Below, piece by piece: positions 2,105 through 53,150 of a stretch of 64,000 nucleotides of DNA (its first letter is position 1; each line of letters opens with the position of its first letter). Where the stretch lies: positions 761 through 64,760 of the forward strand of contig JAUVZL010000007.1 of NCBI GenBank assembly GCA_030602565.1, given 5' to 3'. The stretch is from Candidatus Stahliibacteriota bacterium (lineage in GTDB: Bacteria; Hydrothermota; Tepidihabitantia; SM23-42). The notes under the pieces were generated by a model that worked only from the letters and a program-made list of their open reading frames with translations, was not told the DNA's origin and did not search any database. Made by a program: the position numbers and the translations under genes.

Positions 2105-2429
2105 AGAGTTTGAAAAAGTTGTTGAGCGTGCATTAGCGACTTTACCAGATTTTATCCGCAGCAAACTCCAGAATATCGATATTGTAATTGAAGAACAACC
2201 GATTCTTCATAAATCATTGCTGGGTCTTTATCAGGGAGTGCCTTTGAAAAAGCGGGGCGTTTGGTACGGCAATGTGATGCCCGATAAGATTACCTTATTC
2301 AAGAAGAACATAGAGCGGATAAGTAGTAATGAAGAAGAACTAAGACACTGGATTCACCGGGTCATAATCCACGAAATCGGACACTACTTCGGGTTTGATG
2401 AGGAAGGACTGAGACAAAGCGGATACTGA
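2094..2429 (+). CDS. zincin-like metallopeptidase family protein (Zincin_1/DUF1025 type)
   Basis: 111 aa; whole-length resemblance to the family, C-terminal HEIGHYFGFDEEG HExxH motif. Confidence 0.75.
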   Translation: MELEEFEKVVERALATLPDFIRSKLQNIDIVIEEQPILHKSLLGLYQGVPLKKRGVWYGNVMPDKITLFKKNIERISSNEEELRHWIHRVIIHEIGHYFGFDEEGLRQSGY

Positions 2430-2528
2430 AGTGAGTTTTGGAGTATCGGAGTACCGGAGTATCGGAGTACCGGAGTATGGGAGTAACGGAGAATAGGAGT
2501 AACGGTGAAACAGGACTAACGAGTAGAC
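2425..2528. repeat. degenerate 8-bp periodic tandem array (GAGTAxCG x ~11) with leader ACTGAAGTGAGT
   Basis: gagtatcg gagtaccg gagtatcg gagtaccg gagtatgg gagtaacg ... read directly; starts at stop codon of upstream gene. Confidence 0.8.
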
Positions 2529-2666
2529 TTTAAGGAGTAGTGTATCCTACTGAGGGCACGATTAATAATATCACTGTAATCTTTCTTCCATCACCGTCAT
2601 CGATTTAACCGTAGGTTAAAATGAACTTTTTTTTATCAAAATGGATTATTAATAATAGGAGGTAAG

Positions 2667-4796
2667 ATGAAGAAATTTCAACTATTTCTTGTTCTTGTTA
2701 TATTGGTTTTGTTGAGTTGTGCACCGACATATGTTGAGAGTATTGTTACATCACAAGGTACAGTTTTGGAAATAGACGGAGCTCGATTTGAAATACCGGA
2801 AAACAGTGTTCGGGATTCTACGTGGATCAGGATTGAGAAAAAGGGCGTGGCAAAGAAAAACTATGAACAGGGATATCGTATCAAAGGTGAATCTTTTGTC
2901 ATAAGCCCAGAGACATTGTTTTTTGAGAAACCTTTGCGGTTTTCTTTGCCAGTCAAGGACTCAAACGCTGCATTAGGCGCTAAAATAGGCAGTGGGTTCG
3001 TTTCTTTGGCAAGTTCGTTTGTTGAGGGTGAAACACTGCGGGCGCAGCTACGGCACGGCGGTGAATACTACCTTATAAGTAAACCTGCAGCATACGGCAT
3101 AAGAGATCATTCAGAGACTAAAGAGGGGCTGCTCATTGTCAGTGATATATACGTGAGTGATTATATCAAGAATTTCAAAAAGGTATTAAGGCAGGGCGGT
3201 TATGATTTTCCGATATGGACATTTGTTTATTCAAATGACAATTCAATTGAAGAAAATGCTAAATTTCTCGCTGAAGAACTTAAGACATTACATGAACAAT
3301 ACGGCAATTTCCGCCTTGATATCGTGAGTTTTGGTATTGGTGGCTTAATTGCACACCGCTATATTGCAGATACAATGACATATCAAAGAGACATTTCGCC
3401 CGCAATTATTGCAGTAGGTACACCTTTTTTCGGTTCGAGCTTTGCGAATATTGATAGTATTAAGAAAGCAAAAAGCCCTTATCGTTTCTTTTTTGTTGAT
3501 GGTATGGGAGAAAATGCAAAAGACTTAGAACCTGAATCAGATTTTATCACCTGGCTAAAAAAACATAAAGGTTTACGTGGCGGTTGGTTAAAAGATCCTG
3601 AGGAAGATAAAAACCCTGCTTCTATTAGAGGAAAATTTGGGTTTCCTGGAGAGTTAACCGAAGAAAAAGATGGTGATGGATTGGTTTCTTTATCTTCCAC
3701 AATGCTGACACCAATTGAGCCAGATCCATTCCCTTTAAGTCATTTTGATCTATTTGAAGACAGTGATGTTCATGAAGTAACTAGTGAATTTGTTCAACTG
3801 TATCGTAGTTTTGCGTGGATGGATTTTTTTCTTAAGGTCTGGGAAGAAGATGAACCATTTTCAGAAATCAGCAAGCTCTGGGAAAGAGAAATAAAATTAC
3901 ATTATCGAAATACGATCGATTTTGAAATATTGCTTGAATGGAATGAGAATATGCTGAAGTCGACACCTGAAAATGCTATCCTCATAACTAATGGCGATAA
4001 TGATACTTATCCTGCCTGGTTTCTTCAAGAAAAAGGTATTAGAGACGATATTATAGTAGTAAACCGCAACCTTTTAAATTTAAATGAATACGTACGTTTC
4101 CTTCTCAAACGCGGTTTACCTTTGGACCTCAGTGAAGAGGATTTGGATAGTCTGAAGCATAAGAAGAACGGTGAATTTATCACCAAGTCTGACCAACTTA
4201 TTGTGATGCTTATCGAGCAGAATGAACGACCTTTGGTTTTCTCAACAACCGTATATAGCCCCCAACTTTATGGTTATCCCTTGGAACTTGTTGGAAAAGT
4301 CTATGAAATTGCCGAAGAGAAAGGCGTTGACATAGTCAGGACAACAAAATTACTATATGAGGAGTTCAGTTATGATAAGGTTTCTTCGGTTCCTTTTGAA
4401 TCCTTGAGCGAACCTATTCAACAGTTATGTGGCAACTATGCGGCTTGTGCTCATGAGTTATCAATTGCACTTTTAGATGAAGAAAGATATGATGAAGCAC
4501 TAGCGGCTAATGCATTTGCAAAACGATTCGTAGGTTCTGAGAGTAGTATCATTTTATATTATAATGATGCGCTCATTTTTCTCAAACTCAATAATAAAGA
4601 AAAAGCTGACAGTGCTTTTCGACGATTGCTTAGCAAAGCAGACACTGGTGTTTTGATGAAGAAAAACATTGCAAAATATTATTACGAGATGGATATGAAA
4701 GAAGAAGCCATAAGAATACTTGCCGAGTGTTTGAAGGAAAACCCTGGTGACAGTGAACTCCCTGAGTTAATCAAGAAATACCAGGAGGGCTTATAG
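2667..4796 (+). CDS. secreted/lipoprotein with alpha/beta-hydrolase-like domain (DUF676/PGAP1-like) and C-terminal TPR-like repeats
   Basis: 709 aa; signal peptide with Cys (LLSCAPT); nucleophile-elbow-like segment IVSFGIGGL; helical repeat C-terminus. Confidence 0.45.
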   Translation: MKKFQLFLVLVILVLLSCAPTYVESIVTSQGTVLEIDGARFEIPENSVRDSTWIRIEKKGVAKKNYEQGYRIKGESFVISPETLFFEKPLRFSLPVKDSNAALGAKIGSGFVSLASSFVEGETLRAQLRHGGEYYLISKPAAYGIRDHSETKEGLLIVSDIYVSDYIKNFKKVLRQGGYDFPIWTFVYSNDNSIEENAKFLAEELKTLHEQYGNFRLDIVSFGIGGLIAHRYIADTMTYQRDISPAIIAVGTPFFGSSFANIDSIKKAKSPYRFFFVDGMGENAKDLEPESDFITWLKKHKGLRGGWLKDPEEDKNPASIRGKFGFPGELTEEKDGDGLVSLSSTMLTPIEPDPFPLSHFDLFEDSDVHEVTSEFVQLYRSFAWMDFFLKVWEEDEPFSEISKLWEREIKLHYRNTIDFEILLEWNENMLKSTPENAILITNGDNDTYPAWFLQEKGIRDDIIVVNRNLLNLNEYVRFLLKRGLPLDLSEEDLDSLKHKKNGEFITKSDQLIVMLIEQNERPLVFSTTVYSPQLYGYPLELVGKVYEIAEEKGVDIVRTTKLLYEEFSYDKVSSVPFESLSEPIQQLCGNYAACAHELSIALLDEERYDEALAANAFAKRFVGSESSIILYYNDALIFLKLNNKEKADSAFRRLLSKADTGVLMKKNIAKYYYEMDMKEEAIRILAECLKENPGDSELPELIKKYQEGL

Positions 4797-5335
4797 ACTA
4801 TACTGAGCTTGAGCCGTTTGCACTCTACAAATTATTCAAAGATGGTGATGAAAGAGCATTTGAGATATTATATCAGAGGTTTAATTCAGGGTTGTTCAAT
4901 TATTGTGTGCGGCTGCTCGGTGACTGGCATTATGCTGAGGATGTTTTGGTTGAAACATTCACAAAACTAGCGCACTCAAGCTTGAATGATAAAGGCAGTC
5001 TGAAAGCATGGTTGTACCGTGTGGCAACAAATAGCTGCTACCGGGTTTTCAGGAAAAAGAGGGGAGAGGTTTGTTTTTCAGAAGAAGAGTGTAAGGCAGG
5101 TATTCCAGACCATGGTCCACGTCTTCTTAAGGAAGTGAGGGTTCAGAAAATACTCAATGAACTGCCTGAAAAGCAAAGGGTCGTTGTTTTGTTGAAATTC
5201 TATGAAGACATGAGCTATCAGGAAATTGCGGATATTTTAGGTTGCCCTCTTGGTACGGTTAAATCAAGGATACATGAAGGTATAGGGAAGTTGAGAAAGA
5301 TGATTAAACAGAGAAATGATTATGCAGGAAAATAA
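4793..5335 (+). CDS. ECF (RpoE-like) RNA polymerase sigma-70 factor; start codon uncertain (no ATG/GTG/TTG upstream of conserved region 2)
   Basis: region 2 LYKLFKDGDERAFEILYQRFNSGLFNYCVRLLGDWHYAEDVLVETF and region 4 EIADILGCPLGTVKSRIHEGIGKLRK; frame open from 4766; only ATA at 4793 after AGGAGGG. Confidence 0.7.
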   Translation: MDYTELEPFALYKLFKDGDERAFEILYQRFNSGLFNYCVRLLGDWHYAEDVLVETFTKLAHSSLNDKGSLKAWLYRVATNSCYRVFRKKRGEVCFSEEECKAGIPDHGPRLLKEVRVQKILNELPEKQRVVVLLKFYEDMSYQEIADILGCPLGTVKSRIHEGIGKLRKMIKQRNDYAGK

Positions 5336-5347
5336 TAATAAGGTAGC

Positions 5348-5419
5348 CCCTCGATTAACTTGGGACACTGAATTTTCAAGCAAAGAAGTCCCTCGATTAA
5401 CTCGGGACACTAAATTTTG
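5348..5419. repeat. two 31-bp direct repeats (CCCTCGATTAACTYGGGACACTRAATTTT), period 41 bp, between sigma and anti-sigma genes
   Basis: 5348-5378 and 5389-5419, 2 mismatches; each contains GTCCC-N11-GGGAC inverted arms; related copy 6121-6142. Confidence 0.8.
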
Positions 5420-5460
5420 CAGTCAAATATGAAATTTGAGCAAAATTTGTGGAGGTATGA

Positions 5461-5901
5461 ATGAAATGCCAAGATATTAGGAGTTCTCTTGATGATTATA
5501 TTCTGGGGGATCTCGATTCAGATACTGAAATACAGATGAATGAACACCTTAGCGAATGCAAGGAGTGCGCAGAGGAATTAACCAAAAGGGAAGCAGCATT
5601 TAACATCGTGAAAAGCTCGGCAAGATTCGAGCCATCGGCTGAAATATTTAGGCGTATTAAGAGACAAATATTCATACAGAGGAAGCAACGAAGATCACTG
5701 TGGATTTTCCCGAAGAGCTTTGCTTATGCTGTGGTTGCTTTTTTGTTTGGAATTGCGCTTATGAAATCTCTCGATGTCTTTATTCTAAAACCCGCAGAGC
5801 GTCCCCGGGTTGAGATAAAATACGAAACGCGGCATGAAGAACCATTTGTAGATACAGTGGAGTTTTATCATGCACCGGCTAAGAACCTGGCTAGAATATA
5901 G
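5461..5901 (+). CDS. anti-sigma factor, zf-HC2 type with one TM segment
   Basis: 146 aa; HLSECKECAEEL (HxxxCxxC) near N-terminus, hydrophobic helix AYAVVAFLFGIALM; directly downstream of ECF sigma. Confidence 0.65.
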   Translation: MKCQDIRSSLDDYILGDLDSDTEIQMNEHLSECKECAEELTKREAAFNIVKSSARFEPSAEIFRRIKRQIFIQRKQRRSLWIFPKSFAYAVVAFLFGIALMKSLDVFILKPAERPRVEIKYETRHEEPFVDTVEFYHAPAKNLARI

Positions 5902-5967
5902 GAGTAACTGAAGTGAGTAACGGGGTGTCGGGGTAATGGTGTATCGGGGAAACGGTGTAACGGAGCA
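5902..5967. repeat. 8-bp periodic degenerate array with same leader ACTGAAGTGAGT
   Basis: gagtaact gaagtgag taacgggg tgtcgggg taatggtg tatcgggg aaacggtg taacggag; immediately after anti-sigma stop. Confidence 0.75.
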
Positions 5968-6354
5968 TAAAAGAAAACATTGTAGTTGTCTGATTTATCA
6001 GACATTGCCCGATGAATCCCGCTCCTTCATAAGGGGCGTGGATGAATCGGGCGACTACCAGGAACTAAGTTCCAAGAACATAATTACTTAATAACTGAAT
6101 GATGCTAAGCATAGAAGTGATCCCTCGACTTGCTCGGGATGGAAATGATCCACGCACTTTCATCAAAAGTGCGGGATGGAATGGATTCTTCGAATGGAAT
6201 AATTCGAAATATTCCAGCGTAGCTCCCTTCCAGTACTGTGTACTTCTTTCCAGCCAATGGCTCCTTTCCAGCCGAAGGTCTCGTCGAAGATATCGAACGG
6301 CGTGAGATGAGTTTTTCGAGAGGCAGTGCCATTTCTTCTTGTTTCTTGGAATTT

Positions 6355-6397
6355 GTCTTTAGGTATTTAGGAATTTAGGTGTTTAGGTATTTGATAC
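6355..6397. repeat. tandem 8-bp repeat GTNTTTAG x5
   Basis: gtctttag gtatttag gaatttag gtgtttag gtatttga; reverse-complement-related copy next to tRNA at 17418-17455. Confidence 0.75.
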
Positions 6398-6422
6398 ATT
6401 CTCTCTTCCAATCCGTTAGGAT

Positions 6423-7012: not shown

Positions 7013-7801
7013 TTAGAGCTTTGTTTGCTCACAGAATTTTTCAAAAATCCGGGAAGGCCGGCGTTTTAAGAATCGATCCTGTGCATCTTTGTCTTCGATG
7101 AATTTTAGAATCCAATCTCTATTCGCTTTTGCCATTTTGCCGTATTCCATTGTTTTCTCCGGTTCGCCCGTGACAAAAATAAGTTTTTCTGAACGGAATA
7201 TGAGATCCCTCAGTTTGGCAAATTCGTCTTTCCGGTCAAGGAATTGATTTTCATACTGACGTTTAATCTTTTTTTCTGTTAGTATCTTATAGAATTCATT
7301 CTTGTTTTCGAGAAGCCTTTCACAATCAAAAAAGTTTTTGTTAAGCTCATAGCAGTTTTGGTCGATGAATATTTCACCGACCGGTGCTTTTTCTTCAAGT
7401 AAAGAGGCAGTATCAATAACCGGGCCGTAGACGTTACCGTCTTCACAAATCACTTCGCCGGTGGCAATACCGAGATGAGTGCCCATTAACTGAGTGATTT
7501 CTTTTGTAGCTTCCAATATTCTTAAGCCGCTTAGAACCGCGCTATACGAATCATAGCCATGCGATTTCGGGAAGCCAAAGATCGCCATGACACGGTCGCC
7601 TTCGTGGCGCAAAACAGTGCCGTCATGGATGTGGATTATCGAATCCAGGGTTCTGAAGCACTCGTTGACAAATTCGGCGATTCTTTCAGGTCCCAGTTTT
7701 GAGGTTAGCTCAGTAAATCCAGTAAGGTCTGCATAGAGGATTGTGGCAAGTCTTTTTTCCCTCACGATAAGTATTATACCTAAAAAAGGAATATTAGTCA
7801 A
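7013..7801 (-). CDS. class III adenylate/guanylate cyclase domain protein
   Basis: RLATILYADLTGFTELT ... VLRHEGDRVMAIFGFP cyclase homology domain signatures; TTG start. Confidence 0.75.
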   Translation of the reverse strand: MTNIPFLGIILIVREKRLATILYADLTGFTELTSKLGPERIAEFVNECFRTLDSIIHIHDGTVLRHEGDRVMAIFGFPKSHGYDSYSAVLSGLRILEATKEITQLMGTHLGIATGEVICEDGNVYGPVIDTASLLEEKAPVGEIFIDQNCYELNKNFFDCERLLENKNEFYKILTEKKIKRQYENQFLDRKDEFAKLRDLIFRSEKLIFVTGEPEKTMEYGKMAKANRDWILKFIEDKDAQDRFLKRRPSRIFEKFCEQTKL

Positions 7802-7879
7802 TGATTGACCGTAAGGATAGGATGCACTAGGAACTAGAAGGTGAGCGGCAAGAGAAGCGTCATTAAGTCACTCAACTGT

Positions 7880-7912
7880 GTATTGGGGTAACGGAGTACC
7901 GGTGTATCGGTG
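7880..7912. repeat. short 8-bp periodic array (tattgggg taacggag taccggtg tatcggtg)
   Basis: same unit family as 2425-2528 and 5902-5967. Confidence 0.6.
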
Positions 7913-8042
7913 AAAAAGAACAAATAAAAAAACCAAATAAACTAAAGAAACTAAATAGACTAAAGAAACGATATTAACGATCACAACGCCTATCTATGCG
8001 CATTCAATATTGACTTTCGGATTTTTTAGGATATCATTCAGT

Positions 8043-9470
8043 ATGGATGAACGGCTGAGGAAACTCGCGGAGCTGCGCAAGATGAAAATTAACCCTTACC
8101 CGTACAAATATGAGCGTACCCATACTTTTACTGAGCTGAAGGAGGGTTTTGAGAAGCTGAGCCAATCAGAAGAGATAGTGGCAAGCTGCGGTAGAATTCT
8201 TGCGATTCGTGGCCACGGCAAGACTATTTTTGCTACCCTCACGGATGAGACTTCGAAAATGCAGGTCTATTTTCGTCAAGACAGACTTGGTGACAGATTT
8301 GCTGTCTTTGGGCTATTTGACATCGGCGATTTTATCGGCATCAAAGGTAATCTTTTTAAGACAAAAACCGGTGAGATAACAATACTCGTAAGTGATTTTG
8401 CATTGCTTGCGAAAACCCTAAGACCCCTACCTGAGAAATGGCACGGGTTGAAAGATGTTGAAATAAGGTATAGAAAACGTTATCTTGACCTTATCGCTAA
8501 CCCTGAGATACGTGAGATTTTTAAAAAGAGGACAAGATTGGTGGGTTTGATTCGCAAATTCTTTGATGACCATGGATTTGTTGAGATGGAAACACCTATT
8601 CTCCAGCCTATCTATGGTGGCGGTGAGGCTAATCCATTTAAAACTTATTATAATGCTTTGGAAAGGGATATGTATTTGAGGATCGCTGATGAGCTTTATC
8701 TCAAGAGATTGATCGTTGGTGGTTATGAGAAGGTGTATGAAATCTGCCGTGACTTTCGCAATGAAGGTATTGACCGTTTCCATAACCCCGAGTTCAGCAT
8801 GATTGAGGTGTATCAAGCTTATACTGATTATGAAGGTATTATGGATCTTGTTGAACACCTTGTGGAATTTTTGCTCGATAATCTAAGTAGTTCAAAAACC
8901 ATGGTATTCTGCGACCGTGAGGTAGAATTCAAACGACCCTTCAAACGGATCAAATATACTGATACGTTAAGTGAAAAACTTGGCTTTGACATATTGTCAG
9001 CAAAAGAGAGCGAGGTGGATAAACTCTGCAAAGCACACGGCATTGATTATAAGATATTGTCAACTGGTGCAAAGATTGACAAGCTGTTTAGTGAATTGAT
9101 TCAAAAATACATCATAGAACCTACTTTTGTAATTGACCACCCGAAAGTGATATCGCCGCTTGCTAAAGTGCACAGAAAAGACGAGCGTCTCGTTGAGCGC
9201 TTTGAGTTCATTATGTTTGGTATTGAGCTGGCAAACGCCTTTTCTGAGCTGAATGACCCGGTGGAACAACGTAAGCGGTTTGAAGCGCAACTCGCTCAGA
9301 AGGCAGAAGGTATCAGCAAAATAGATGAAGATTTCCTTGAAGCATTAGAATACGGTATGCCGCCGTGTGGAGGTTTGGGTATTGGCATCGACCGTTTGTT
9401 AATGATTTTGCTTGATCAACCTTCAATCCGGGACGTAATCCTTTTCCCGCAACTACGGCAGGAGAGGTGA
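8043..9470 (+). CDS. lysS: lysine--tRNA ligase (class II)
   Basis: full-length class II aaRS with LysRS motifs (FRNEGID..HNPEF, GGLGIGIDRL); start moved to ATG 8043 (MDERLRKL). Confidence 0.9.
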   Translation: MDERLRKLAELRKMKINPYPYKYERTHTFTELKEGFEKLSQSEEIVASCGRILAIRGHGKTIFATLTDETSKMQVYFRQDRLGDRFAVFGLFDIGDFIGIKGNLFKTKTGEITILVSDFALLAKTLRPLPEKWHGLKDVEIRYRKRYLDLIANPEIREIFKKRTRLVGLIRKFFDDHGFVEMETPILQPIYGGGEANPFKTYYNALERDMYLRIADELYLKRLIVGGYEKVYEICRDFRNEGIDRFHNPEFSMIEVYQAYTDYEGIMDLVEHLVEFLLDNLSSSKTMVFCDREVEFKRPFKRIKYTDTLSEKLGFDILSAKESEVDKLCKAHGIDYKILSTGAKIDKLFSELIQKYIIEPTFVIDHPKVISPLAKVHRKDERLVERFEFIMFGIELANAFSELNDPVEQRKRFEAQLAQKAEGISKIDEDFLEALEYGMPPCGGLGIGIDRLLMILLDQPSIRDVILFPQLRQER

Positions 9471-24415: not shown

Positions 24416-24536
24416 AACTCACCAGGATGTCCGAGATATTGAGTTCATCGAAATGCATTAGTATCGCCTGTCCCGAGTAATATCGAGGGGAGTAAACCGA
24501 GATGTCGAAGATCTCGAGTAAATCGAGAGGTTATAG
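24416..24536. repeat. short copy of composite dispersed repeat (left end AACTCACCAGGATGTC, internal GTATCGCCTGTCCCGAGTAATATCGAGGGGAGTA and CCGAGATGTCGAAGATCTCGAG blocks)
   Basis: blocks identical to 28282-28437. Confidence 0.8.
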
Positions 24537-28281: not shown

Positions 28282-28555
28282 CAACTCACCAGGATGTCGG
28301 AGATATCGTCGAAGATATCGAGGGTAATGAGATGAAGTATTTGAGATGCGTCAGTATCGAGTATCCCGAGATGTCGAAGATCTCGAGCACACCGAGAGGC
28401 ATCAGTATCGCCTGTCCCGAGTAATATCGAGGGGAGTATCCCGAGATGCTGAAAGTCCTGAGGAATCGAAGGGATTTGACCCCAATTTCTTCCCTTAGTA
28501 TCGAGAGAAGCCGAGATGAAGAATTGAAGGGACCTGATCCCCAACCTTTCCGCCA
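28282..28555. repeat. full-length composite dispersed repeat (MITE-like): left end CAACTCACCAGGATGTC, 8-bp-periodic TATCGAG/GTCCCGAG interior, right end tandem GAATCGAAGGGATTTGACCCCAATTTCTTCCC-like units
   Basis: fragments of same element at 24416-24536, 30322-30338 (left end only) and 31487-31576 (right end only). Confidence 0.8.
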
Positions 28556-29193: not shown

Positions 29194-29823
29194 CTAACGG
29201 GGTGAATCAGTGTCCCGAGTGTATCGAGAGAAGGTTGTCGAGGGGATTTTCTTTTTGTTAGTTTCATTTTTGTTTATTTTATATATTATGTGATAACGAT
29301 ACCATATGCCTCTTGTTTTTCTGAAACCTGCTTTCTCATAAACTCTTATTGCTGGTATATTTTCTTTATGGGGAGGGACTAGAAGGATATCAGCTTTTGT
29401 CTCGGAAAAAACGTATTGCACGATGGTTTTCATTACCTCGGTGCCGTACCCTTTATTCCAGTAAGTTTTGATTAACTTAACATCAGTCATTAGAGCAAGC
29501 TTATTTTTTGGAGCTTTATAGTTTGGACACGACCAGCCTGATCTTAATCTTCCCAACCCACTTTCTCCAATCCGCCCTTCTTTCTTAAGTTTAACAATAA
29601 AATGGATTTCAGTGTTACCATACTTTGTTATATTTTTTTTATATTTCTCAAACCATTTGCAGATTTGGGCGTAATTCCAGTTTTTTGCAAAGCCAGCGTA
29701 CCGCATAATTTCGGGATCATTCCAGAGTTTTAATAGAAACTTCAAATGTTGTTGAGTCATAGGATGGATCACTAGATGTCGTGTCTTTATAATTTGCCTT
29801 TTTTTCATATTTTGTACATTCAT
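29194..29823 (-). CDS. GNAT family N-acetyltransferase
   Basis: 209 aa; acetyl-CoA-binding-like region NKGYGTEVM. Confidence 0.7.
   Translation of the reverse strand: MNVQNMKKRQIIKTRHLVIHPMTQQHLKFLLKLWNDPEIMRYAGFAKNWNYAQICKWFEKYKKNITKYGNTEIHFIVKLKKEGRIGESGLGRLRSGWSCPNYKAPKNKLALMTDVKLIKTYWNKGYGTEVMKTIVQYVFSETKADILLVPPHKENIPAIRVYEKAGFRKTRGIWYRYHIIYKINKNETNKKKIPSTTFSRYTRDTDSPR
29209..29272. repeat. ~65-bp dispersed element GTGTCCCGAGTGTATCGAGAGAAGGTTGTCGAGGGGWTTTTCTTTTTGTTRGTTTCATTTYTG (copy 1)
   Basis: copies at 30622-30694 and partial 31367-31411. Confidence 0.85.
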
Positions 29824-30264: not shown

Positions 30265-30392
30265 TATCCACCTCCTTTTTTTCAAAGAGTATATTCTGAA
30301 GTTAACACATGTCAAGCCAATCCAACTCACCAGGATGTATCTCTACGAGATTCGATTACGGCGATAAACCAAATAAATTACATACCAGTGAT

Positions 30393-30432
30393 ATCACTGT
30401 CCCGCTCACGAGGACTCTTGGAGTAATCTGCT
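30393..30432. repeat. 40-bp exact repeat (copy 2)
   Basis: identical to 29057-29096. Confidence 0.9.
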
Positions 30433-30621
30433 CATAATCGCTGTCCCGCATAGCGTGGATCCTCGTCTTGTATGGCGGGATAATCATACGAGTCTACTCG
30501 TTGCATTTAATTATTGTTGTATCTGTAAATCACTGTCATCTGTTGTTAATCGCTGAAATTGACCCTAGGAGATAATGGCTGTCACGAATTTTTCTCAAAT
30601 CTATGATTTGATTGCAAAACT

Positions 30622-30694
30622 CAGTGTCCCGCCTGTCCCGAGTGTATCGAGAGAAGGTTGTCGAGGGGTTTTTCTTTTTGTTGGTTTCATTTCT
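30622..30694. repeat. ~65-bp dispersed element (copy 2, with extra GTCCCGCCT prefix)
   Basis: see 29209-29272. Confidence 0.85.
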
Positions 30695-31064
30695 GGGCTC
30701 CTTATATCTATTGGTTGCCGTAGGTCTCGTCGTAGATCTCGAAGTATTGAGAGGAGTGTATCGAGAGGCAATTTTTTCATAGACGGAGCAACCGTTTCTC
30801 CAAGTCTTAACAAGATGACACCATTTGCTTCTTTTGTAGCATTTGTCAAACGTTTAGATTTGACGCCATTTGTTTACAAAACAGTATAATCAAAGATAAT
30901 AAAGTCATATTGTCATGCACCGTCCCTACTTCCCAACAGTTAATTTTAGACAACCAGGCGGACGAGGATCGGTCTCAAGATTCTTTATCGAACGTAAAAT
31001 TCGAATAGCATCATTAGGGGAGAGTCTATAGATGAATTTTTCGGCTGATGGTTTTATTAAAACT

Positions 31065-31277: not shown

Positions 31278-31486
31278 AAGATCCTCCTTATATTCAGTAT
31301 ACGATTATATGTCTAATTCACATTCTGTCAACATAAATGGTGCACGTTTTTATCTGAGTTCTGCAAAGCGAGACGATGAGGGGTTTTTCTTTTTGTTAGT
31401 TTCATTTTTGGCTGCACAAAATTTACTGTCCTCGTTTTCTGTAAAAGAAACGGGACTTCATCAATTTGTGAATTGTGAAGCTGAAA

Positions 31487-31576
31487 GTATCGCCTGTCCC
31501 GAGATGTCGAAGATCTCGCCTGTATCGAGTTTATCGAGATGAGTGAATCGAAGGGATTTGACCCCAATTTCTCTCC
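31487..31576. repeat. right-end fragment of composite dispersed repeat
   Basis: AGTATCGCCTGTCCCGAGATGTCGAAGATCTCG...GAATCGAAGGGATTTGACCCCAATTTCTCTCC. Confidence 0.8.
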
Positions 31577-31579
31577 TGG

Positions 31580-52974: not shown

Positions 52975-53150
52975 CATGTCATTCCCGCGCAAGCGGGAAT
53001 CTATGAATGGTTGGTTTGATTCTGGATTCCCAGTCAAGCTGGGAATGACAAGAGGGGATGCTGGGAATGACAAGAGGGGATGCCGGGCAATGACCAGACA
53101 GGTATTGCCGAAGGGTTTTCCTGTCTCGGCAATCGCAGGCATCCGACTTT
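52975..53150. repeat. cluster of hairpins with GGGAAT/ATTCCC arms incl. GNRA-looped ATTCCCGC-GCAA-GCGGGAAT, ATTCCCAG-TCAAG-CTGGGAAT, tandem 21/22-bp GGGAATGACAAGAGGGGATGC x2
   Basis: read directly; ORFs 52795-53142(-) and 52895-53152(+) here judged spurious. Confidence 0.7.

What the first reader, a model, noticed from the sequence alone, without database searches (positions are those of the whole stretch)
2425..2528. Degenerate 8-bp-periodic tandem arrays with a shared leader at gene 3' ends
Arrays of about 8-11 units of GAGTAxCG / TAxCGGxG occur at 2425-2528, 5902-5967 and 7880-7912. The first two begin with the identical 12-mer ACTGAAGTGAGT placed at or next to a stop codon. The unit shares the GAGTATC / TATCGAG core with the interior of the composite repeat at 28282-28555. 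An 8-bp period is off the DNA helical repeat, which hints at an RNA-level or protein-array-binding role, or slipped-strand instability.
Basis: seen in the sequence. Interest (0 to 1): 0.55.

Follow-up and report, generated by a model that had tools for sequence, protein, structure and literature searches.

The report
Variable octamer repeats beside REP hairpins
Three runs of a degenerate 8-base repeat (GGnGTAnC) in an uncultured WOR-3 bacterium are real and change quickly between strains, and they are one building block of patchwork repeat DNA between genes that also holds REP-type hairpins, so they look like ordinary repeat turnover rather than a new signal.

Summary
The arrays exist where reported (2440-2521, 5914-5969, 7877-7916, all on the + strand). 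They are far beyond chance and are reproduced in independent assemblies, so they are not assembly noise. The shared 12-mer ACTGAAGTGAGT is also real. Only two of the three arrays follow a stop codon. The third lies between divergent genes. The claimed link to the 28282-28555 repeat is not supported.

The window comes from candidate division WOR-3. Among related strains the arrays stay at the same sites but differ in unit number (about 5, 10 or 13 at site 1), in unit sequence and in block duplications. Arrays at different sites share identical runs of 30-34 nt, so they are copied between sites. Array 2 is followed by a GTAG-tagged REP head-to-head dimer. In metagenome contigs this dimer is often flanked, in one polarity, by related GTA-core 7-8-nt arrays.

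Composition-matched control octamer patterns are as common as GGnGTAnC in viral contigs, so the motif is not special across the biosphere. The arrays have no RNA structure and no Rfam match.

Best reading: a lineage-specific, slippage- and conversion-driven short tandem repeat module of REP/BIME-like mosaic intergenic DNA. The uneven conservation within the unit (G2, G4 and A6 nearly invariant) remains unexplained.

The parts
2425..2436 (+). 12-mer ACTGAAGTGAGT ('leader'), overlapping the TGA stop (2427-2429) of the Zincin_1 gene
   Evidence: There are exact copies only at 2425 and 5907 in the window. The same 12-mer is at the orthologous sites of L131 and L132, but is absent at site 1 of L134/L135.
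2437..2528 (+). Array 1. It has 9 clean GGnGTAnC units (2440-2511), a partial unit before them and two degenerate units after them (AGGACTAAC GAGTAGAC). The 16-bp block GGAGTATCGGAGTACC is duplicated.
   Evidence: TRF gives period 8/16 with scores 83-97. Unit number differs between strains: 5 in L131-133 and about 13 in L134/135. No RNA structure, z -0.02.
5907..5918 (+). Second copy of the 12-mer, 6 nt after the TAG stop (5899-5901) of the zf-HC2 anti-sigma gene
5914..5969 (+). Array 2, with 7 units: TGAGTAAC GGGGTGTC GGGGTAAT GGTGTATC GGGGAAAC GGTGTAAC GGAGCATA
   Evidence: TRF period 16, score 59; register scan. In the L121-type strains the same site has 3 units, a 27-nt hairpin, then about 10 more units.
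5970..5981 (+). A-rich linker (AAAGAAAACATT) between array 2 and the REP head
   Evidence: ATAAAAGAAAACAYTGTAGTT is conserved at L225 sites 1 and 2 and at L228/L129 site 2.
5982..6003 (+). REP1: GTAG head plus hairpin GTCTGAT-TT-ATCAGAC
   Evidence: Exact copies at L225 sites 1 and 2 and in many metagenome contigs. It is part of a structure with z -7.1.
6008..6058 (-). REP2 in inverted orientation. Its reverse complement reads GTAG-TCG-CCCGAT..ATCGGG. It is interrupted by a nested hairpin at 6019-6041 and ATGAATC is duplicated.
   Evidence: The uninterrupted form CCCGATGAATCGGGCGACTAC is found in L129, L225, L228 and at 74 distinct metagenome sites. Together with REP1 it forms a head-to-head GTAG-REP dimer as defined in PMC3733652.
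7877..7916 (+). Array 3, with 4-5 units (TGTGTATT GGGGTAAC GGAGTACC GGTGTATC GGTGAAAA), between divergent genes about 130 nt upstream of the lysS ATG
   Evidence: Register scan 31/32 with 0 hits in shuffles. It is conserved with 2 substitutions in L121-L128 and absent in L129/L130.

Best explanation
The arrays are a lineage-specific family of degenerate octamer short tandem repeats (consensus GGnGTAnC). They form one module of mosaic, REP/BIME-like intergenic repeat DNA in a WOR-3 bacterium.

Shown. They sit in non-coding DNA. Their unit number and unit order change between related strains through gain and loss of single units and multi-unit blocks. They are copied between intergenic sites, as identical 30-34-nt runs at different loci and within-genome resemblance of sites 1 and 2 demonstrate. 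At several sites they directly precede a GTAG-tagged REP head-to-head dimer.

Inferred. The change is driven by replication slippage and unequal exchange, plus gene conversion or duplication between copies. The position after stop codons reflects where such repeat DNA is tolerated, and where REP-type elements usually accumulate, rather than a signal read by the cell. At most the array acts as an unstructured purine-rich spacer between the stop codon and the REP hairpins.
For: The arrays are real and non-random and are reproduced in independent assemblies.

Site 1 has about 10 units in the window, 5 in L131-133 and about 13 in L134/135. The last includes a duplicated 40-bp block, and the flanks are conserved. 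Site 2 differs by insertions and by unit content among the window, L121, L132 and L135.

Copying between loci is shown by a 34-nt identical run between window site 1 and L121 site 2, and by a 30-nt run between the fourth site of L122 and its site 2. Sites 1 and 2 are 85-93% identical within L225, L226 and L228. In L228 both copies carry the same nested insertion.

Other unrelated 7-9-bp arrays fill the same spacers: TTTAGGTA, TAAAGAAAC and CCAAGAAC-type. A REP dimer is adjacent. GTA-core arrays are enriched next to that dimer in one polarity: 13 sites against 1, with controls at 0-1.

Control octamer patterns are as frequent as GGnGTAnC in viral contigs (27 loci against 14, 17 and 31). The arrays have no RNA structure and no Rfam family.
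Against: Variation within the unit is far from uniform. G2 and G4 are invariant in 21 of 21 window units and A6 in 20 of 21, while positions 3 and 7 vary freely (chi-square p = 3e-5 for all units, 1.4e-3 on unique unit types). This is what a recognition motif would look like, although the units are not independent.

Some purine-rich GTA-containing array follows the same two stop codons in every lineage examined, down to 57% identity of the neighbouring protein. That suggests either selection or a persistent generating process. Only about 64 kb of this genome was available, so the genome-wide distribution is unknown.
Confidence: 0.5

Rival explanations
1. The arrays are by-products of, or substrates for, the REP/RAYT system. 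They would be reiterated copies of the REP head region (core GnGTA, compare CT|GTAG), made by repeated cleavage and rejoining by a Y1 HUH transposase (RAYT) or by slippage at the REP head. They would then be moved together with the REP dimer as one polar composite.
For: Array 2 runs into a GTAG-REP dimer. In L240, L262, L330 and L245 heptamer arrays (GCGTAGG, GAGTAGG) run in register into the REP1 head, and L257 has an extra CTGTAG copy. The arrays keep one polarity relative to the asymmetric dimer, 13 sites against 1. L122 has an array in which octamers continue into GTA heptamers. RAYT-like Y1_Tnp genes are present on contigs that carry this REP family. RAYTs need the GTAG tag and cleave at CT next to the REP (PMC8266576).
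Against: The octamer units never have G at position 7, so they lack GTAG itself. Window arrays 1 and 3 have no adjacent REP hairpin. No RAYT gene is in the 64-kb window. Strict GGnGTAnC arrays are rare near the REP dimer in metagenome contigs, 1 of 74 sites. The in-register junctions are a handful of loci inspected by eye.
Confidence: 0.2
2. The arrays are DNA binding sites for an oligomerising protein that reads one 8-bp unit per subunit. Known examples are ribbon-helix-helix proteins on tandem met boxes, omega heptads and ParG boxes, or FtsK/TraB gamma domains on 8-bp motifs.
For: Conservation is position-specific, G1 G2 n G4 W A6 n C. The 8-bp period and contiguous units match that kind of site (the MetJ, omega and ParG comparisons are from my own knowledge; tandem 8-bp TraB sites are mentioned in PMC4447253). 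All three window arrays share one strand, the one with positive GC skew.
Against: Unit number is not conserved between strains. There is no conserved neighbouring regulator gene, and the flanking genes differ at the three sites. A related strain has an array on the other strand. The motif is no more frequent than control octamers elsewhere. No binding test is possible with these tools.
Confidence: 0.1
3. The arrays act in RNA as a 3'-UTR element. They could be a single-stranded purine-rich platform that binds a protein or the anti-Shine-Dalgarno end of 16S rRNA through the GGAG repeats. They could also set the distance between the stop codon and the REP hairpins, influencing mRNA decay or termination.
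For: Arrays 1 and 2 start at or 6 nt after stop codons on the sense strand. This is true at those two sites in all lineages examined. The RNA is predicted to be unstructured. The organism uses AGGAGG ribosome-binding sites, and array 1 carries GGAG in every unit.
Against: Array 3 lies upstream of both predicted divergent promoters. The fourth array in L122 is antisense to its neighbours. L026 has an array upstream of a divergent gene. Arrays 2 and 3 mostly carry GGGG or GGTG rather than GGAG or GGA. No expression data were available.
Confidence: 0.12
4. The arrays are assembly artefacts.
For: Scaffold gaps occur near other repeats in L131 and L132.
Against: There is an identical sequence in an independent Logan assembly. 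Arrays sit at the same sites in at least 10 other assemblies from different samples.
Confidence: 0.01

Closest known systems
REP / BIME / REPIN elements with RAYT (TnpA_REP) transposases
   Same: Both are intergenic and often sit just after stop codons. Here there is a GTAG tag plus a short hairpin, two units in head-to-head orientation, and tandem clusters of dimers with short linkers (L248). Y1_Tnp genes are found on related contigs.
   Different: The octamer arrays themselves are not palindromic and do not fold. REP descriptions (PMC3733652, PMC8266576) do not include flanking tandem 7-8-nt arrays. Copy number in this genome is unknown.
Neisseria intergenic mosaic elements (dRS3 / RS repeats)
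   Same: The spacers are built from several interleaved short repeat families around small inverted repeats, and they vary between strains. PMC3733652 notes such mosaic regions.
   Different: The sequences, organism and unit sizes differ. No link to phage integration or to the Neisseria elements was tested.
Cyanobacterial STRR heptamer repeats (from my own knowledge)
   Same: Both are short (7-8 nt), tandem, degenerate and intergenic, and occur as lineage-specific families at several loci.
   Different: The period here is 8 rather than 7, the phylum is different, and the STRR function is itself unknown.
VNTR / simple sequence contingency loci
   Same: Both are head-to-tail repeats whose copy number differs between strains.
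   Different: The units here are degenerate rather than identical. They do not lie inside a reading frame or between promoter elements, so no phase-variable switch is expected.
Tandem operator or centromere arrays read by ribbon-helix-helix proteins (MetJ met boxes, omega heptads, ParG boxes) and 8-bp TraB/FtsK motifs
   Same: Contiguous 7-8-bp units with position-specific conservation.
   Different: There is no cognate gene nearby, unit number is not conserved, and no binding evidence exists.

Membership tests
Short tandem repeat (VNTR-like) | Head-to-tail copies of one short unit, more than chance gives | tested here: met
   TRF period 8/16. No hits in shuffles.
Short tandem repeat (VNTR-like) | Copy number differs between related strains at the same locus | tested here: met
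   About 5, 10 or 13 units at site 1, with a block duplication. Site 2 also varies.
GTAG-REP / REPIN (applies to 5982-6058, not to the arrays) | Short palindrome preceded by the tetranucleotide GTAG | tested here: met
   GTAG-TT-GTCTGATTTATCAGAC, and on the other strand GTAG-TCG-CCCGAT..ATCGGG. Fold z -7.1.
GTAG-REP / REPIN | Two REPs in inverted orientation (dimer) | tested here: met
   Head-to-head heterodimer with a 4-nt spacer, recurring at 74 distinct metagenome sites.
GTAG-REP / REPIN | Many copies per genome and a RAYT gene in the same genome | tested here: inconclusive
   There is one dimer in the 64-kb window and two in L225 and in L228. No RAYT gene is in the window, but Y1_Tnp genes are on L233/L238 and L326. 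The whole genome was not available.
GTAG-REP / REPIN (the arrays themselves) | Palindromic, hairpin-forming unit | tested here: not met
   The arrays fold no better than shuffles.
CRISPR array | Repeats of 24-48 nt separated by unique spacers of similar length | tested here: not met
   The units are 8 nt and contiguous, with no spacers.
Phase-variable contingency locus | Perfect repeat tract inside a reading frame or between the -35 and -10 elements | tested here: not met
   The units are degenerate. The arrays lie after stop codons or more than 90 nt upstream of the predicted promoter.
CsrA/RsmA-sponge small RNA | Multiple GGA motifs, many presented in hairpin loops | tested here: not met
   There are no hairpins. 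Arrays 2 and 3 mostly have GGGG or GGTG. No Rfam match.
Ribbon-helix-helix operator or centromere array | Specific binding by a cognate protein, usually encoded nearby | not testable with these tools
   Flanking genes are Zincin_1, a TMEM260-like TPR protein, an ECF sigma/anti-sigma pair, an HTH_20 protein, a cyclase and LysRS. Small ORFs were not screened.
Widespread conserved motif (a universal GGnGTAnC element) | Occurs more often than composition-matched octamer arrays | tested here: not met
   In viral contigs there are 27 loci (about half from one phage group) against 14, 17 and 31 for three controls.

The most novel reading that the evidence does not exclude
The GnGTA-core arrays could be a physical record, or a working part, of REP/RAYT activity. 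Repeated cleavage and rejoining by a Y1 HUH transposase at CT|GTAG would reiterate the REP head. This would produce polar tandem arrays that travel with the REP dimer and could serve as extra binding or landing sites. That would be a previously undescribed component of REP systems, found in an uncultured phylum.
Probability: 0.15. Interest if true: 0.6.

Novelty: new variant of a known kind. Interest (0 to 1): 0.33.

Why it matters
If the main reading is right, this is ordinary repeat turnover. It is useful mainly as a strain marker and as a warning that such tracts break assemblies and mimic signals at gene ends. It does document that WOR-3 genomes carry GTAG-REP dimers inside mosaic spacers. 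It also shows that short polar tandem arrays are attached to those dimers, which published REP surveys do not describe. If the arrays turn out to be made or used by a RAYT, they would give a sequence-level readout of how these domesticated transposases act in vivo.

Tried and rejected
1. A universal GGnGTAnC element. A genome-collection scan gave more than 119 loci in many phyla. Three composition-matched control patterns were equally common in viral contigs, so those hits are ascertainment.

2. Preference for the first 25 nt after a co-oriented stop codon across those loci (23 of 56 arrays classed intergenic). This was not relied on. The ORF caller was crude, and the G-rich strand carries TAA/TAG while the other strand cannot encode a stop, which creates an artefact in high-GC genomes.

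3. CsrA-type sponge, G-quadruplex, CRISPR and known RNA families. These were rejected on unit sequence, folding and Rfam results.

4. Literature search by unit sequence found nothing relevant. A search for octamer repeats gave only the Streptomyces TraB lead.

5. Link to the 28282-28555 repeat: no similarity.

6. Arrays or REPs as boundaries of the divergent cassette between strains. The identity profile is mosaic and is not bounded by the arrays.

7. Strict GGnGTAnC arrays next to the REP dimer in metagenomes were found at only 1 of 74 sites.

8. Taxonomy of the other low-GC MAGs with similar arrays (L056, L084, L099, L116) was not resolved. The last protein search was wasted on a 54-aa fragment.

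9. Exact look-ups for two window proteins failed.

Full report
**The observation**

The reported arrays are present. Tandem Repeats Finder reports period 8 and 16 arrays at 2440-2521 and 5917-5963. A scan that scores four consecutive units in register finds exactly three arrays in the 64-kb window. They lie at 2432-2511, 5914-5969 and 7877-7916, all on the + strand, and the scan finds none in shuffled sequence. TRF rows with score 40 or more number 15 in the window against 1.6 +/- 1.3 in 30 dinucleotide-preserving shuffles.

The 12-mer ACTGAAGTGAGT occurs exactly at 2425 and 5907. The first copy overlaps the TGA stop of a Zincin_1 gene (2094-2429). The second begins 6 nt after the TAG stop of a zf-HC2 anti-sigma gene (5461-5901).

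Array 3 is different. It lies between a minus-strand cyclase gene and lysS, about 130 nt upstream of the lysS ATG at 8043. A sigma-70-like promoter ends 6 nt before that ATG, so array 3 is probably upstream of both divergent promoters (the promoter assignment is inference).

The proposed link to 28282-28555 is not supported. That region belongs to a separate dispersed repeat family and has no BLAST similarity to the arrays.

**Origin and reality**

LysRS and the neighbouring TMEM260-like protein place the window in candidate division WOR-3. A Logan assembly of SRR14872667 is 100% identical across arrays 1 and 2. More than ten assemblies of related strains from other samples carry arrays at the same sites. 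The arrays are therefore not assembly noise.

**Behaviour between strains**

At site 1, after the Zincin_1 stop, the window has 9 clean units plus 2 degenerate ones. Strains L131-L133 have about 5 units with a different unit sequence. L134/L135 have about 13 units, including a duplicated 40-bp block of five units, and lack the 12-mer. The downstream flank is conserved in all of them. The window array itself contains a duplicated 16-bp block.

At site 2, after the anti-sigma stop, the L121-type strains have the 12-mer, three units, a 27-nt hairpin and then about ten more units. L132 has a different 220-bp insertion, and L135 has three units followed by another repeat type.

Array 3 is conserved with two substitutions in the 96%-identical strains. 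It is absent in more distant relatives.

**Copying between sites**

Window site 1 and L121 site 2 share a 34-nt identical run that includes the odd unit GGAGTATG. L122 has a fourth array 10 kb downstream of lysS, on the minus strand, which shares a 30-nt run with its own site 2.

Within L225, L226 and L228, the spacers after the two stop codons are 85-93% identical to each other over 76-154 nt. In L228 both carry the same nested insertion. L226 has heptamer arrays (GTAGNCA, AGTAAGT) with a shared tail at both sites instead of octamers.

The two 'leader plus array' copies are therefore paralogous. They flank the 3.3-kb TMEM260-like/sigma/anti-sigma cassette as direct repeats and evolve in concert.

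**Context: REP-type mosaic DNA**

Array 2 is followed by an A-rich linker and then a head-to-head pair of GTAG-tagged hairpins:
- GTAG-TT-GTCTGATTTATCAGAC at 5982-6003.
- On the other strand, GTAG-TCG-CCCGAT..ATCGGG at 6008-6058, interrupted by a 23-nt nested hairpin.

This region folds far better than shuffles (z -7.1), whereas the arrays do not (z -0.02, +1.05, -0.08). The architecture matches the GTAG-REP head-to-head dimers described in PMC3733652 and the REP/BIME description in PMC8266576.

Among them are 74 distinct sites with the full ...CGACTAC end. Some are tandem clusters of dimers, such as L248 with an 84-bp period.

Within 250 nt of the dimer, tandem 7-8-nt units with a GTA core occur at 13 sites on the same strand and at 1 site on the other. 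Control cores give 0-1 sites, and the rest of those contigs gives one array in 336 kb. Strict GGnGTAnC arrays are rare there, at 1 of 74 sites.

In several contigs the heptamer arrays run in register into the REP head, and L257 has an extra CTGTAG copy. Y1_Tnp (RAYT-like) genes occur on three contigs that carry this REP family (L233/L238, which are the same sequence, and L326). The L233 gene is flanked by its own GTAG REPs. None is in the window.

**Is the motif special?**

Many of those hits are perfect repeats in high-GC genomes.

Three composition-matched control patterns gave 14, 17 and 31 loci in the viral collection, against 27 for the true pattern. About half of those 27 come from one phage group, and heterogeneity at the free positions is similar in the controls. 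The cross-phylum hits are therefore best read as ascertainment. One of them, L026, shares a 90-nt non-coding module with L228, so it is a WOR-3 relative with an array at yet another locus, upstream of a divergent gene.

**What remains unexplained**

Among the 21 window units, G2 and G4 never vary and A6 varies once. Positions 3 and 7 vary in about half of the units, and position 7 is never G. Chi-square against uniform gives p = 3e-5, or 1.4e-3 on unique unit types. The units are not independent, so these values overstate the case.

The octamers and the REP-flanking heptamers share the core GnGTA. Some purine-rich GTA-containing array follows the same two stop codons in every lineage examined, even where the neighbouring protein is only 57% identical. 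These points keep a recognition-motif or REP-linked origin open.

**Verdict**

The most likely explanation (about 0.5) is a lineage-specific, fast-evolving octamer tandem repeat. It forms one module of REP/BIME-like mosaic intergenic DNA, changes by slippage and unequal exchange, and is homogenised between nearby copies by conversion or duplication.

The rivals are:
- Reiteration of the REP head by, or for, a RAYT (0.2).
- An RNA-level 3'-UTR role (0.12).
- A DNA-binding protein array (0.1).
- An assembly artefact (0.01).

Among known kinds it is closest to REP/BIME/REPIN mosaics, Neisseria-type mosaic spacers and cyanobacterial STRR repeats. The polar attachment of short tandem arrays to GTAG-REP dimers is not part of the published descriptions I could read. 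I therefore rate it a new variant of a known kind, of modest interest.

Noticed in passing
window 7013-7801 (junction about 7161-7169): The 262-aa cyclase ORF is a fusion left by a deletion of about 5.6 kb between two paralogous Guanylate_cyc-AAA-TPR genes (1102 and 1032 aa). Both genes are intact in L121-L133, L129 and L130.
   Followed up: partly
window 6019-6041; L228 3648 and 7290: A 23-nt hairpin (CCGCTCCTTCATAAGGGGCGTGG) is inserted in the loop of REP2, with ATGAATC duplicated on either side. In L228/L129 the same hairpin sits in the other orientation in the loop of REP1, flanked by TTTA. It looks like a tiny element that targets hairpin loops.
   Followed up: partly
window 5968-6400: This segment is absent from the L121-type strains. 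Parts of it (ATGATGCTAAGCATAGAAG..., GCACTTTCATCAAAAGTGCGGGATGGAATGG) recur after REP dimers in metagenome contigs L242, L245 and L330, so it may be part of a larger composite repeat.
   Followed up: partly
window 6358-6392, 7925-7969, 7968-7990: The same spacers hold other short-period arrays: TTTAGGTA x4.4, TAAAGAAAC x5 and AACGATnTT-like repeats upstream of lysS. The last of these are longer in related strains.
   Followed up: no
window 24416-24521, 28282-28555, 29197-29272, 30392-30432, 30611-30695, 31349-31577: A separate dispersed intergenic repeat family with motifs GTCCCGAG, TATCGAG and GATGTCGAAGATCTCGAG. Related modules occur in L122 at about 19.06-19.25 kb.
   Followed up: partly
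window 52977-53100: A 22-bp tandem repeat (GCTGGGAATGACAAGAGGGGAT x2.7) lies next to palindromes of the type GTCATTCCCGCGCAAGCGGGAATC. This is probably another hairpin repeat family.
   Followed up: no
window 8010-8045: A promoter-like TTGACT-N17-TATCAT ends 6 nt before the lysS ATG (8043) and is conserved in relatives. This suggests a leaderless or very short-leader lysS mRNA.
   Followed up: no
L131 9473-9790, L132 9474-9790, L225 3580-3700: The 3' end of the Zincin_1 gene is tandemly duplicated in units of about 100 bp, together with a hairpin GCAACAAGAGGACTTGTTGC. The duplication coincides with scaffold gaps in L131 and L132.
   Followed up: no
L233 4977-5760: A RAYT-like Y1_Tnp gene is flanked by its own GTAG REPs (GTAGGGCAAGGCTTTACCCTTGC), with four tandem copies downstream. 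This is a REPtron-like arrangement on a contig that also carries the CCCGATGAATCGGGCGACTAC REP.
   Followed up: partly
window 2600-5600 versus L131: Identity to the closest strain group is mosaic: 99-100% at 2600-3400, about 60% at 4000-4600, and again low at 5200-5600. This indicates recombination inside the TMEM260-like/sigma/anti-sigma cassette.
   Followed up: partly
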